DNA of 37,419 bases from an uncultured Candidatus Saccharibacteria bacterium (lineage in GTDB: Bacteria > Patescibacteriota > Minisyncoccia > 2-02-FULL-40-12): assembly GCA_964361105.1 (NCBI GenBank), contig CAYHZG010000003.1:1-37419 (forward strand), read 5' to 3'. Below the pieces are notes generated by a model. That model saw only the letters and a program-made list of their open reading frames with translations. It was not told the origin of the DNA and did not search any database. This document shows positions 21,169 to 31,019 of the stretch, one piece after another. The position numbers were made by a program, and so were the translations under genes. Position 1 is the stretch's first letter; every line of letters begins with the position of its first letter.

Positions 21169-21264
21169 AATATATATAGATATGAATCTATATAATTATT
21201 TCGCTTGGTTGAAGTGAATAAATAACTATTCACTTCTCCCTCGCTTATAATTATAATTTTGGTA

Positions 21265-28997: not shown

Positions 28998-29127
28998 TTT
29001 TTGTCTAAGAGCGAAGCGATTAGCAACAAAATCTAAACCGAGCACTCAGCAAGGAAAATTATTTACATTTCTGAGTGCTCGGTGCTGAAATTTATAGTTG
29101 CTCGCCGAGCTCGCAAATAAATTTCGC
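28996..29127 (+). promoter_or_regulatory. Structured rpsD leader (family D, copy 2)
   Basis: Same 5' block as the rpsM leader; hairpin ACCGAGCACTCAG / CTGAGTGCTCGGT. Confidence 0.6.
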
Positions 29128-29766
29128 ATGGCAAGATACACTGGTCCAAAAGAAAAAATTGAAAGACGACTGGGTGAGAAACTTTTTTTGAAAGGGGAGC
29201 GTTCTTATTCTCCAAAAGCAGCCATGGTTCGTAAGCCCTATCCGCCAGGGGTCCATGGTCGTCGCCTAAAAAACAGAAAATTTTCCGAGTACGGCCTTCA
29301 ACTTATCGCCAAGCAAAAAGTCAGAAATATTTATCGCATTTTGGAGAGACAGTTCAGAAGATATACCGATGAAGCGGTGAAATCTAGGGGTGATTCGGGT
29401 GAGGCCTTGGTCCAAGGTTTAGAAAGACGGCTGGATAATGTAGTTTTTCGATTAGGATTTTCTGATGCCAGAGACACGGCGAGACAACTGGTTAGCCACA
29501 GTCATTTTTTGGTCAACGATAAGCATATCAACATTCCTTCTTTCAAGGTCAGAGTTGGCGATGTCGTAAAAGTAAAACCGCAAAATTTAAAGAACAAATA
29601 TTTTTCTTCTTTTCTGCCTCGATACTTGAAAAAGTACCAGCCTCCTAGCTGGCTTGAGGTTGATAAAGAAACATTTATCGGCAAGGTTAAGAATTTGCCA
29701 AGTTTAGCCGAAAGCGGCGTTCAGCATAAAGATGTTCAGGCGATAATTGAGTTTTATTCGAGGTAG
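29128..29766 (+). CDS. rpsD: 30S ribosomal protein S4
   Basis: MARYTGP, PPGVHG, SEYGLQL, LERRLDNVVFRLG, ARQLVSH, IIEFYSR. Confidence 0.98.
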   Translation: MARYTGPKEKIERRLGEKLFLKGERSYSPKAAMVRKPYPPGVHGRRLKNRKFSEYGLQLIAKQKVRNIYRILERQFRRYTDEAVKSRGDSGEALVQGLERRLDNVVFRLGFSDARDTARQLVSHSHFLVNDKHINIPSFKVRVGDVVKVKPQNLKNKYFSSFLPRYLKKYQPPSWLEVDKETFIGKVKNLPSLAESGVQHKDVQAIIEFYSR

Positions 29767-29781
29767 GCAAAGCCATATGGA

Positions 29782-29896
29782 TCCCGAACGAAATAGCCCT
29801 GTCGGGTTCGGGATATAAGTAAAATTTTAATTAAATAGCATGATGGGCAATTATAGACTTATGTATATAACTGCGCAGCAGCTATTTCGTACGGGA
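29782..29896 (+). mobile_element. Family A divergent copy 4 (115 nt) before rpoA; flanked by TGGA/TGGA
   Basis: TCCCGAACGAAATAGC...GCTATTTCGTACGGGA; shares ACTGCG(C/A)AGCAGC with copy 5 and, split by the nested insert, copy 2. Confidence 0.75.
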
Positions 29897-30657
29897 TGGA
29901 AATTTTAGTCGGAGAGCCAAAAATTGTCAGCAAAGAAAACAACAGAACGGTTTTTGAAATTAGCCCGCTCTATACAGGATATGGGATAACAATCGGAAAC
30001 TCCCTCCGGAGGGTTTTACTTTCTTCAATGCCCGGGGCCGCGGCCGTGAAAATCAAGATTGAAGGCGTGCCTCACGAATTCACGACCATTCCTGGCGTTT
30101 TAGAAGATGTGGTAGACATAATTTTAAATTTAAAGAAAGTAAGGTTTAAACTTTCAGGAGTTGATTCGGCCAAAGCCATTTTGAATGCCAAAGGAGAGAA
30201 AGAAATCACGGCCGGCGATTTAAGTTTGCCGACTGGTGTGGAGGTGGTAAATCCGGACCAAAAAATCTTAACTTTAAGCGACAAAAAAGCCGAGGTTAAT
30301 ATGGAGATAGAAATTGAAAAGGGCATTGGTTATGGGCCGGTTGAGCAAAGGCAGAAAGAGAAACTTTCGGTCGGGGAAATAGCCATTGACGCAATTTTTA
30401 GTCCGGTTCGGAGGGTCAGTTTTCGAGTTGAGAATATCAGAGTGGGGGAGAGGACTGATTTTAATAAACTTTTCATTGACGTTGAAACCGACGGCAGCGT
30501 TACTCCCGAAGAAGCCATGAAAAAAGCAGTTGGAATTTTAATTGAGCAGTTTAAGGTAATGGGCGAGAGTCCAAATTTAGAGGTTAAAGTAAAAGAGCCA
30601 GCCGAAGACAAACCAAAAAAGAAAAGAGGAAGACCCAGAAAAGTAGTCGGTAGTTAA
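29896..30657 (+). CDS. rpoA: RNA polymerase alpha subunit lacking the alpha-CTD
   Basis: GYGITIGNSLRRVLLSS, HEFTTIPGVLEDV, IDAIFSPV, RVGERTDF, ETDGS; ends KKKRGRPRKVVGS at 253 aa. Confidence 0.97.
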   Translation: MEILVGEPKIVSKENNRTVFEISPLYTGYGITIGNSLRRVLLSSMPGAAAVKIKIEGVPHEFTTIPGVLEDVVDIILNLKKVRFKLSGVDSAKAILNAKGEKEITAGDLSLPTGVEVVNPDQKILTLSDKKAEVNMEIEIEKGIGYGPVEQRQKEKLSVGEIAIDAIFSPVRRVSFRVENIRVGERTDFNKLFIDVETDGSVTPEEAMKKAVGILIEQFKVMGESPNLEVKVKEPAEDKPKKKRGRPRKVVGS

Positions 30658-30671
30658 AAATTAGAAAAATC

Positions 30672-31019
30672 ATGAGAAAACGGAAAAAGGGGAAAAAATT
30701 TGGAAGAGTCAAAGAACAGAGAAGAGCTTTAATGAATAGCTTGGTTTCTGCATTGGTCTTGCATAAAAAGATAAAGACCACCGAGGCGAAAGCCAAAGAG
30801 TTGAGGCGTTTTATAGAGCCCTTGATTACCAAAGCCAGAGTCGGCGATTTGGCCAAAAGGCGTCAGGTCAGAAAATTTTTGTCTGACTCAATTACCAAGA
30901 AACTGTTTGATGAAATAGGACCGTTGTATAAAGAAAGGCCCGGCGGCTATACCAGAATCATCAAACTGGCGCCACGGGAATCGGACGGAGCGCGAATGGC
31001 CCAGATAGAATTTGTATAA
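30672..31019 (+). CDS. rplQ: 50S ribosomal protein L17
   Basis: IKTTEAKAKELR, ERPGGYTRIIKL. Confidence 0.98.
   Translation: MRKRKKGKKFGRVKEQRRALMNSLVSALVLHKKIKTTEAKAKELRRFIEPLITKARVGDLAKRRQVRKFLSDSITKKLFDEIGPLYKERPGGYTRIIKLAPRESDGARMAQIEFV

What the first reader, a model, noticed from the sequence alone, without database searches (positions are those of the whole stretch)
30560..30657. RpoA alpha-CTD replaced by an AT-hook
Seen: after the NTD the protein has a short linker then KPKKKRGRPRK and stops at 253 aa, with rplQ 14 nt later, so there is no frameshifted CTD. Established: the alpha-CTD binds AT-rich UP elements in the minor groove, and the (K/R)RGRPRK AT-hook of HMGA proteins also binds AT-rich minor grooves. 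Inference: a minimal peptide substitute for UP-element recognition.
Basis: partly seen in the sequence, partly recalled or inferred. Interest (0 to 1): 0.75.

Follow-up and report, generated by a model that had tools for sequence, protein, structure and literature searches.

The report
RNA polymerase alpha ending in AT-hook
In this tiny-genome (Parcubacteria-type) bacterium the RNA polymerase alpha subunit has lost its usual DNA- and activator-binding end domain and instead ends in a floppy linker tipped with a conserved AT-hook, which probably grips A/T-rich DNA upstream of promoters.

Summary
rpoA (29896-30657) encodes 253 aa: an alpha N-terminal domain, a 16-residue disordered linker, then PKKKRGRPRK and four more residues. 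rplQ starts 14 nt later.

No alpha-CTD is encoded elsewhere in this genome. It passes the Pfam cut-off in only 1 of 105 genomes of the order, on a probable contaminant contig.

The tail passes Pfam's AT_hook cut-off. The 10-residue block is nearly invariant in 53 relatives while the linker varies freely, and its codons differ synonymously.

- Most CTD-less relatives, including the other three families of the order, carry plain lysine-rich tails without GRP.
- Hooks and lysine tails interconvert repeatedly on the NTD tree; a single origin is rejected.
- No binding data exist.

New here: the only other [KR]GRP[KR] motif in the whole genome lies in the very basic N-terminal extension of the primary sigma factor. 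Several genomes of the same family have sigma hooks too.

My best reading is a minor-groove tether to upstream promoter DNA, comparable to CarD or WhiB7.

CTD loss in Parcubacteria has one sentence in print; I found no paper on the AT-hook. This scan has already reported the same feature in at least 26 other genomes.

The parts
29896..30657 (+). rpoA, the CTD-less RNA polymerase alpha subunit (253 aa plus stop)
   Evidence: ORF list. Pfam PF01000 and PF01193 only. NCBIfam NF003519 290 bits (cut-off 277) and TIGR02027 269 bits (cut-off 227.8), aligned only to model positions 16-246/320 and 2-228/298. It is the only rpoA in the genome.
29896..30564 (+). alpha N-terminal (assembly and dimerisation) domain, residues 1-223
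   Evidence: The AlphaFold2 model is confident over about residues 9-223, and the last helix spans 204-223. Pfam domains agree.
30565..30612 (+). disordered linker ESPNLEVKVKEPAEDK (residues 224-239), net acidic and variable among relatives
   Evidence: pLDDT 42-52 with no secondary structure. Column entropy is 2.2-3.6 bits across 53 relatives.
30613..30642 (+). AT-hook block PKKKRGRPRK (residues 240-249; core R244-G245-R246-P247)
   Evidence: Translation. Pfam AT_hook 17.9 bits against a cut-off of 17.4. The block is nearly invariant in 53 relatives. P, R and K codons differ synonymously among 9 loci.
30643..30657 (+). last four residues VVGS plus the TAA stop; variable in sequence and length among relatives
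   Evidence: 2-10 residues follow the GRP core in 52 of 53 sequences, and 28 residues in one.
30672..31019 (+). rplQ (ribosomal protein L17), starting 14 nt after the rpoA stop
   Evidence: Pfam Ribosomal_L17, E 8e-35; sequence.
29098..29766 (+). rpsD (ribosomal protein S4), upstream neighbour. The listed ORF starts at a TTG; the MARYTGP start lies 30 nt further in.
   Evidence: Pfam Ribosomal_S4 plus the S4 domain.
29767..29895 (+). rpsD-rpoA spacer with a stable hairpin (ATCCCGAAC...GTTCGGGAT) and a weak promoter-like site
   Evidence: RNA fold -35.4 kcal/mol, z -2.97 against shuffles. Promoter-like match listed.

Best explanation
This rpoA encodes an alpha subunit in which the folded C-terminal domain has been replaced. 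In its place is a short disordered, mildly acidic linker ending in one canonical AT-hook (PKKKRGRPRK).

Shown:
- The CTD is absent from the gene, from the rest of the genome and from the whole order.
- The tail is disordered.
- The hook is under purifying selection as a peptide.
- Such hooks and plain Lys-rich tails have replaced one another repeatedly in CTD-less alphas.

Inferred mechanism: RNA polymerase carries two alpha subunits, so it projects two flexible basic tails from its upstream face. The R-G-R core of each tail lies in the narrow minor groove of A/T tracts just upstream of the -35 element, roughly the region an alpha-CTD would contact. This adds activator-independent affinity for promoters with A/T-rich upstream DNA. 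Lys-rich tails in sister lineages would do the same job by charge, with less sequence preference.

In this family the primary sigma factor's basic N-terminal extension also carries AT-hooks. The holoenzyme may therefore present three or more hooks.
For: CTD loss is real:
- No PF03118 match over the cut-off in this genome. The only weak hit (15.6 bits) lies in a PolX-like HhH/PHP protein.
- PF03118 is over the cut-off in 1 of 105 genomes of the order. That hit is on a 1.5-kb contig of a 330-contig, 4%-contaminated bin and belongs to a second, 42%-identical rpoA.
- The same search found the domain in 263 of 301 genomes of the phylum sample, 256 over the cut-off.

The hook is real and selected:
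- The Pfam AT_hook cut-off is passed.
- The P-K-K-K-R-G-R-P-[KR]-K block is nearly invariant in 53 sequences, next to a linker with 2.2-3.6 bits of entropy.
- Codon differences within the block are synonymous.
- The tail is predicted disordered.
- The hook clade does not differ in GC: 0.39-0.46 against 0.30-0.63 for K-tail loci.

Recurrence:
- The hook occurs in at least five separate places on the NTD tree, with a minimum of 8 changes.
- A single clade is rejected: delta lnL 262, p-AU 1e-56.

Link to nucleic-acid binding:
- RpoA's C-terminus is among the 4 most basic of 481 ORFs.
- Sigma's N-terminus is the most basic of all.
- The only two [KR]GRP[KR] motifs in the genome lie in alpha and sigma.

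Precedents in papers (passages read):
- M. xanthus CarD binds RNAP and uses an acidic segment followed by RGRP hooks to bind an AT-rich site upstream of a promoter. That domain can be swapped for other basic disordered domains (PMC4374960).
- WhiB7, while bound to sigma region 4, uses a C-terminal AT-hook on an AT-rich motif just upstream of -35 (PMC3905903).

Weak support: the 21 nt upstream of 90 predicted -35 hexamers are slightly more AT-rich (0.647 against 0.594) and have longer W-runs (6.3 against 5.4) than control windows.
Against: - There are no binding, footprint or transcription data, and the organism is uncultivated.
- Most CTD-less relatives manage with Lys-rich tails lacking GRP. 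AT-selectivity may therefore not be what is selected.
- Three CTD-less alphas have no basic tail at all (L030, L031, L040), so a tail is not obligatory.
- The promoter test uses unverified promoter predictions. Picking AT-rich hexamers drags in AT-rich surroundings, the controls include some coding flank, and AT-rich upstream DNA is general in bacteria.
- The co-occurrence of sigma hooks and alpha hooks is confined to one family, so it is one evolutionary event. The two independent hook lineages I checked (G253, G238) have no sigma hook.
- The basic sigma extension is also present in class members that keep the CTD, so it is not a response to CTD loss.
Confidence: 0.55

Rival explanations
1. 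The tail is a generic polycation tether. It holds polymerase on any DNA by charge (nucleoid retention, sliding, non-specific upstream wrapping).
For: - Lys-rich tails without GRP are the majority state among CTD-less alphas. They account for 22 of 31 order loci, 22 of 28 in the phylum sample, and 25 against 4 among 150 representatives.
- Hooks and K-tails interconvert often.
- Lysine repeats on sigma HrdB and other DNA-binding proteins are read as general DNA tethers (PMC5714199 passage).
Against: - If only charge mattered, G, P and the exact order K-R-G-R-P-[KR]-K should drift. They are invariant in 53 sequences, with synonymous codon change.
- The same 9-residue spelling reappears in separate lineages.
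- The hook clade uses R at 17% of tail positions against 3% in K-tails, without any GC difference.
Confidence: 0.25
2. The tail binds something other than promoter DNA. Candidates are nascent or ribosomal RNA (AT-hook-like peptides can bind RNA; recalled, not checked here), an acidic protein partner, or the acidic linker itself as an autoinhibitory switch.
For: - The other ORFs with similarly basic termini in this genome include an L2-like ribosomal protein.
- The linker before the hook is acidic.
- rpoA sits in a ribosomal-protein operon.
Against: - Nothing points to a specific RNA or protein partner.
- The position of the tail, at the end of alpha-NTD where the CTD linker normally emerges towards upstream DNA, favours DNA. 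This rests on established RNAP structure and is an inference.
- Sigma, the promoter-recognition subunit, carries the same motif.
Confidence: 0.1
3. The tail is a neutral remnant of genome reduction and has no function. The AT-hook match is a by-product of low-complexity basic sequence.
For: - Three CTD-less alphas have no basic tail (L030, L031, L040).
- Engineered CTD-less alpha supports basal transcription in E. coli, as stated in PMC8321222.
Against: - The 10-residue block is nearly invariant next to a freely varying linker.
- Codon changes are synonymous.
- The motif arises in 0.25% of composition-matched shuffles.
- The hook recurs in separate lineages.
Confidence: 0.03
4. The CTD still exists but is encoded as a separate gene or on unassembled DNA. 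On this view the genome, 87.6% complete, only appears to lack it.
For: - The genome is incomplete.
- A stand-alone 158-aa protein with an alpha-CTD-like end exists in another family of the phylum (G095).
- Family f21 has divergent CTDs that fall under the Pfam cut-off.
Against: - PF03118 is over the cut-off in only 1 of 105 genomes of the order. Of those 105, 74 are at least 90% complete, and the one hit looks like contamination.
- All full-length rpoA frames in the order are 246-301 aa.
- rplQ follows rpoA directly here.
Confidence: 0.03

Closest known systems
Canonical bacterial RpoA with alpha-CTD (Pfam PF03118) binding UP elements (E. coli rrnB P1 paradigm)
   Same: The N-terminal assembly domain, the operon position (rpsK-rpsD-rpoA-rplQ) and a flexible linker leaving the NTD are all the same. 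The proposed target is also the same: the minor groove of A/T-rich DNA upstream of -35. The UP element is described as alternating A- and T-tracts bound by alpha-CTD in PMC12641261 (passage).
   Different: There is no folded helix-hairpin-helix CTD, so there is no surface for class I/II activators. DNA contact, if any, comes from a 10-residue disordered peptide.
Myxococcus xanthus CarD (RNAP-binding domain plus HMGA-like tail)
   Same: Both are RNAP-associated polypeptides with an intrinsically disordered acidic segment followed by RGRP AT-hooks. CarD's tail binds the minor groove of an AT-rich site upstream of a promoter. Both show functional interchange between hooks and other basic disordered (H1-like) domains (PMC4374960 passages). 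That interchange mirrors the hook and K-tail swaps seen here.
   Different: CarD is an accessory factor with four hooks that binds the beta subunit through a Tudor-like domain. Here a single hook is part of a core subunit and stands where the CTD was.
Mycobacterial WhiB7
   Same: [quoted passage not shown]
   Different: WhiB7 is a regulated Fe-S transcription factor bound to sigma region 4 and acts on a regulon. The hook here is constitutive and built into alpha.
Eukaryotic HMGA proteins (AT-hook, Pfam PF02178)
   Same: The same motif passes the Pfam cut-off. It has an RGRP core flanked by K/R, lies in a disordered context and has an acidic stretch nearby.
   Different: HMGA has three hooks per chain and a C-terminal acidic tail (recalled). 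Here there is one hook per chain, so two per polymerase, and the acidic stretch comes before the hook. There is no evidence of common descent.
CTD-less alpha subunits already noted in print (Hodgkinia and Tremblaya endosymbionts; one sentence on Parcubacteria)
   Same: Loss of alpha-CTD in reduced genomes. [quoted passage not shown]
   Different: That paper does not mention a basic tail or an AT-hook in the passages I saw. The paper it cites (PMC4508563) has no occurrence of 'polymerase' in its main text; I did not open its supplements.
Lysine-repeat N-terminal regions of primary sigma factors (Streptomyces HrdB, B. pertussis RpoD)
   Same: A basic, repeat-like extension on the primary sigma factor, read as a DNA-binding aid (PMC5714199 passages). 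It is comparable to the basic N-terminal extension of sigma found across this class.
   Different: In this family the extension carries one to three RGRP hooks. The passages I read do not mention hooks for HrdB.

Membership tests
Bacterial RNA polymerase alpha subunit (RpoA; TIGR02027 / NF003519) | Alpha N-terminal domain (PF01193 dimerisation plus PF01000 insert), scoring over the curated cut-offs | tested here: met
   PF01000 112 bits and PF01193 82 bits. NF003519 290 bits against 277, and TIGR02027 269 bits against 227.8.
Bacterial RNA polymerase alpha subunit (RpoA; TIGR02027 / NF003519) | C-terminal domain (PF03118, helix-hairpin-helix) joined by a flexible linker | tested here: not met
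   There is no PF03118 match in the protein, in the genome or in the order, apart from 1 of 105 genomes on a likely contaminant contig. The rpoA models align only to their first roughly 246 positions.
Bacterial RNA polymerase alpha subunit (RpoA; TIGR02027 / NF003519) | Conserved operon context rpsK-rpsD-rpoA-rplQ and a single copy | tested here: met
   Pfam finds S11, S4 and L17 in the neighbours. The genome has one PF01000 match.
AT-hook motif (Pfam PF02178) | Score at or above Pfam's gathering threshold | tested here: met
   17.9 bits against 17.4, E 0.0025, profile positions 1-11 of 13. The margin is small, as it is for any 13-position model.
AT-hook motif (Pfam PF02178) | R-G-R-P core flanked by Lys/Arg on both sides | tested here: met
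   The sequence is KKKRGRPRK. The flanks are conserved in 53 relatives.
AT-hook motif (Pfam PF02178) | Lies in an intrinsically disordered segment | tested here: met
   AlphaFold2 gives pLDDT 42-52 and no secondary structure for residues 224-253. This is a prediction only.
AT-hook motif (Pfam PF02178) | Binds the minor groove of A/T-rich DNA | not testable with these tools
   This needs EMSA, footprinting or NMR. The promoter-composition test was weak.
HMGA protein family | Several (three) AT-hooks in one small, wholly disordered protein with an acidic C-terminal tail (recalled definition) | tested here: not met
   There is one hook per chain, attached to a folded 223-residue domain, and the acidic stretch precedes the hook.
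CarD_CdnL_TRCF family (CarD-type RNAP-binding proteins with an HMGA-like tail) | N-terminal Tudor-like RNAP-beta-binding domain | tested here: not met
   Pfam finds only the RNA_pol_A_bac and RNA_pol_L domains in this protein.

The most novel reading that the evidence does not exclude
A family of Parcubacteria-type bacteria recognises promoters with a polymerase that has no alpha-CTD. Instead it presents a set of AT-hooks, one on each of the two alpha tails and one to three on the sigma N-terminal extension. Together they would work as a multivalent minor-groove clamp on A/T tracts upstream of -35, like a built-in HMGA. The same solution has arisen several times independently wherever the CTD was lost, which would define a second, peptide-based mode of UP-element-like recognition in bacteria.
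Probability: 0.3. Interest if true: 0.8.

Novelty: new variant of a known kind. Interest (0 to 1): 0.6.

Why it matters
The alpha-CTD is treated as universal in bacteria; a 2025 paper calls it 'ubiquitously present across all Bacteria' (PMC12531629 passage). It is the contact point for UP elements and for most classical activators.

A whole order of Patescibacteria lacks it, and about 28 of the 301 phylum genomes sampled do too. These organisms cannot use class I/II activation through alpha.

The conserved AT-hook, with lysine tails in sister lineages, gives a concrete and testable idea of how a minimal polymerase keeps a grip on upstream DNA. Synthetic peptides and reconstituted enzymes would be enough to test it. 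Its repeated appearance points to convergent evolution under genome reduction.

The co-occurrence of hooks on alpha and sigma in one family may be new. I ran no paper search that paired sigma hooks with these bacteria; one search combined AT-hook with sigma factor only in general terms.

Tried and rejected
- Split or relocated CTD: rejected.
- Frameshifted CTD after the stop: rejected, because rplQ follows after 14 nt.
- Compositional drift (K to R/G/P with rising GC) as the cause of the hook: rejected. Locus GC is 0.39-0.46 for hook loci and 0.30-0.63 for K-tail loci.
- Nucleotide-level constraint, such as a ribosome-binding site for rplQ: unlikely. The block ends 29 nt before the rplQ ATG and its codons vary synonymously.
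- Sigma's basic extension as compensation for CTD loss: rejected. It is present in six CTD-bearing class members too.
- Promoter upstream A/T test: positive but weak and non-specific. I do not count it as real support.
- PDB sequence search with the 31-aa tail: no match, because the query is too short.
- The search for related loci in named genomes: returned 80 loci (62 CTD, 15 K-tail, 3 other) and no hook-bearing ones.
- Rfam and tRNA scans around the repeated element near 21.2 kb: nothing.
- Literature searches that found no paper linking an AT-hook to CPR or Patescibacteria RpoA.
- Using PF03118 absence alone overcounts CTD loss. Of the 45 genomes with no or weak PF03118 matches, 17 keep a divergent CTD-like end.

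Full report
**Observation**

The ORF at window 29896-30657 (+) encodes 253 aa ending ...EPAEDKPKKKRGRPRKVVGS. Its stop is at 30655-30657. The next gene starts at 30672 and is ribosomal protein L17. The genes upstream are S11 and S4.

- Pfam finds only the two alpha-NTD families, PF01000 and PF01193.
- NCBIfam's rpoA models pass their cut-offs but align only to about their first 246 of 320 positions.

**Is the CTD really gone?**

The window lies in a 524-kb, 59-contig genome, 87.6% complete.

- PF03118 (alpha-CTD) finds nothing over its cut-off there. The single 15.6-bit hit lies in a 513-aa PolX-like protein with helix-hairpin-helix repeats.
- There is one rpoA.
- Across the order (105 genomes, 74 of them at least 90% complete), the full-length rpoA frames are 246-301 aa.
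- In the order, PF03118 passes its cut-off in only 1 of 105 genomes. That hit is on a 1.5-kb contig of a 1.4-Mb, 330-contig bin, in a second rpoA only 42% identical to the query. I read it as contamination.

In a phylum-wide sample of 301 genomes the same search finds the CTD in 263, with 256 over the cut-off. That count includes the unpublished genome G154; without it the figure is 262 of 300. The loss is therefore lineage-specific.

Absence of PF03118 overcounts the loss. Of the 45 genomes with no or weak matches, all have an rpoA NTD. Seventeen of them (15 of family f21, plus G149 and G227) keep a divergent CTD-like end of the form ...ILEKNGI.T... (my reading). That leaves 28 that are truly CTD-less.

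**What replaces the CTD**

- Of those 28, 22 end in Lys/Arg-rich tails after an acidic linker.
- Two, from other classes (G253, G238), end in KKKRGRPKK.
- Three have no basic tail (L030, L031, L040).
- One is cut by a contig end (L042).

Within the order I read 31 loci. Seven carry the hook, all of them from the window's own family (7 of its 8 genomes). Twenty-two carry K/R tails, including the eighth family member, G304. Two have a basic cluster followed by an acidic end.

Among the 120 best database homologues, all 157-278 aa and none with PF03118, 44 carry [KR]GRP[KR]. These are 42 of the 46 at 66% identity or more, and 2 of the 74 more distant ones.

Among the best 150 of 9,260 representatives of 50%-identity clusters, a CTD profile I built here flags 94. 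The rest comprise 25 K-tails, 4 hooks and 27 others, several of which look truncated or frameshifted.

**Is the hook selected?**

- The tail passes Pfam's AT_hook cut-off, 17.9 against 17.4 bits.
- Anchored on GRP in 53 hook-bearing sequences, the positions my definition does not force are nearly invariant: P 39/53, K 51/53, K/R 53/53, K 53/53 and, after the core, K 53/53. The 20 linker positions before them have 2.2-3.6 bits of entropy, and the residues after them vary in sequence and number.
- Codons for P, R and K in the block differ synonymously among nine loci.
- Composition-matched shuffles of the 30-aa tail give the motif in 0.25% of trials.
- AlphaFold2, run on a 53-sequence alignment, gives a confident NTD over residues 9-223 and a low-confidence coil (pLDDT 42-52) for residues 224-253.
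- Locus GC does not separate hook lineages from K-tail lineages, so compositional drift does not explain the R/G/P content.

**Evolution**

- A FastTree of 217 NTDs needs at least 7 hook changes.
- An IQ-TREE quick tree of 103 NTDs needs at least 8.
- The hook appears in one main clade (SH-aLRT 98) that contains K-tail reversals (P0045, P0046).
- It also appears separately in P0055, which is nested among K-tails with support 99. The other separate occurrences are L015, L049 with P0158, P0150 and P0157.
- Forcing all 15 hook rows into one clade costs 262 log-likelihood units, p-AU 1e-56. I named that group after seeing the first tree. This is a single-gene tree with some long branches.
- The direction of change (gains against losses) is not resolved. 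What is shown is frequent interchange between hooks and lysine tails.

**A second hook in the holoenzyme**

Scanning all 854 ORFs of at least 80 aa in the genome finds [KR]GRP[KR] only twice. One is RpoA. The other is a 409-aa protein on contig C25.

- Pfam identifies this protein as a primary-type sigma factor, with regions 1.1, 1.2, 2, 3 and 4.
- Its first 55 residues are the most basic N-terminus in the genome, with 20 K/R in the first 30. They contain GRRGRPKK.
- Relatives align from residues 2-12 onward, so the extension is translated and conserved.

I read 29 sigma-type sequences from 27 genomes. Two are fragments or gapped (L130, L121), one has only a short extension of 29 aa (L125), and one is a second, non-primary sigma (L132). 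The other 25 have a basic extension of 53-151 aa. It is present across the class, including six genomes that keep the alpha-CTD, so it is not a response to CTD loss.

GRP motifs occur only in the window's family. G302 has them in two sigma copies, G303 has three hooks, G305 has one, G306 has a weak SGRPL and G307 has none. None of the 23 sequences outside the family has one, and that includes G253 and G238, whose alphas carry hooks. Because this is one clade, it counts as one observation and not as a correlation.

**Promoter DNA**

I predicted promoters crudely, as the best TTGACA-N16-18-TATAAT match in 182 upstream regions. The 21 nt upstream of 90 candidate -35 hexamers have these values against control windows from the same regions:

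| Measure | Upstream of -35 | Controls |
|---|---|---|
| AT fraction | 0.647 | 0.594 |
| Longest W-run | 6.3 | 5.4 |
| A4/T4 tracts | 0.99 | 0.71 |

The one-sided Mann-Whitney p values run from 1e-4 to 5e-3. The predictions are unverified, selecting AT-rich hexamers favours AT-rich surroundings, and such enrichment is general in bacteria. I treat the result as compatible with the idea, not as evidence for it.

**Mechanism**

The shown facts are the CTD loss, a disordered tail, a peptide-level conserved AT-hook, recurrent interchange with lysine tails, and a second hook on sigma.

The rest is inference from established knowledge. The alpha linker leaves the NTD on the upstream face of the polymerase. 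Alpha-CTD contacts the minor groove of A/T tracts upstream of -35. AT-hooks insert R-G-R into narrow A/T minor grooves. These points are partly recalled; the UP-element description is in the PMC12641261 passage.

From this I infer that the two alpha tails, and in this family the sigma extension too, tether the holoenzyme to A/T-rich upstream DNA. That would be an activator-independent substitute for the UP-element contact.

Two bacterial precedents work this way in trans:
- CarD has an acidic segment followed by RGRP hooks and binds an AT-rich site upstream of a promoter. Its hook domain can be exchanged for other basic disordered domains (PMC4374960 passages).
- WhiB7 places an AT-hook on an AT-rich motif next to -35 while bound to sigma region 4 (PMC3905903 abstract and passages).

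The CarD exchange experiment also supports the main rival, in which charge is what matters and A/T reading is not.

**Literature**

- One sentence in PMC8321222 says that alpha-CTD loss 'is also present in Parcubacteria' (passage).
- The paper it cites, PMC4508563, has no occurrence of 'polymerase' in its main text. I did not open its supplements, which might hold the statement.
- PMC12531629 calls the alpha-CTD 'ubiquitously present across all Bacteria' (passage).
- Searches combining AT-hook, alpha subunit/CTD/rpoA and CPR/Patescibacteria/Parcubacteria found no paper describing the hook. The library lacks most subscription journals.

**Earlier findings of this scan**

Earlier notes describe the same AT-hook-tailed alpha in at least 26 other genomes, and lysine-tailed CTD-less alphas in several more. 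One note describes a lysine-rich sigma N-terminus. I looked these up after forming my reading, and they are not independent evidence.

**Verdict**

The replacement of the CTD by a conserved AT-hook is real in this family. The broader rule, however, is 'CTD replaced by a basic disordered tail', and the UP-element function remains an untested inference.

Relative to the literature I could search, this is a new variant of known kinds, namely RNAP alpha and AT-hook-assisted promoter binding. It is of moderate to high interest and directly testable in vitro.

Noticed in passing
G000 contig C25:5756-6985 (+), outside the window: The primary sigma-70 factor (regions 1.1-4) has a 55-residue, extremely basic N-terminal extension containing GRRGRPKK. 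This is the only other [KR]GRP[KR] motif in the genome. Family members G302, G303 and G305 have one to three such hooks in the same place.
   Followed up: yes
window 29767-29895: The rpsD-rpoA spacer folds into a stable hairpin (ATCCCGAAC...GTTCGGGAT; -35.4 kcal/mol, z -2.97). Earlier notes of this scan describe mobile hairpin repeats between ribosomal genes in related genomes.
   Followed up: partly
window about 21172-21260 (+); also G000 C7 near 4857 (-) and C18 near 8330 (-): A conserved element of about 80 nt occurs three times in the genome. It contains two inverted repeats (TATATAGAT..ATCTATATA and GAAGTGAATA..TATTCACTTC) followed by TATAAT-like hexamers. There is no Rfam or tRNA match, so it may be a shared operator/promoter or a small repeat.
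   Followed up: partly
L095:1246-1722 (G095, family f72, another class): A stand-alone 158-aa ORF whose C-terminal half matches alpha-CTD (PF03118, 56.5 bits), next to a ribosome-hibernation-factor-like gene. Two other genomes of that family have CTD-less alphas with acidic ends and no basic tail.
   Followed up: no
loci L025-L029, L034, L036-L038, L043, L045-L048, L050, L051 (family f21): Fifteen genomes of one family keep a divergent alpha-CTD (...ILEKNGI.T...) that falls below or near the Pfam cut-off. Pfam-based surveys will therefore overcount CTD loss in this phylum.
   Followed up: partly
G355:C273:133-1011 (L133): A second rpoA with a normal CTD, only 42% identical to the query, sits on a 1.5-kb contig of a 330-contig bin. 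It is probably contamination from another organism.
   Followed up: no
G000 contig C20:1996-2478 (+): A 160-aa ORF has an N-terminus that reads KKKRGRKRSRKK, hook-like but without the proline. I did not identify the protein.
   Followed up: no
phylum sample: Many Patescibacteria genomes have two or three PF03118 matches (for example families f31, f34 and f62), so extra alpha-CTD-like domains exist outside rpoA in this phylum.
   Followed up: no
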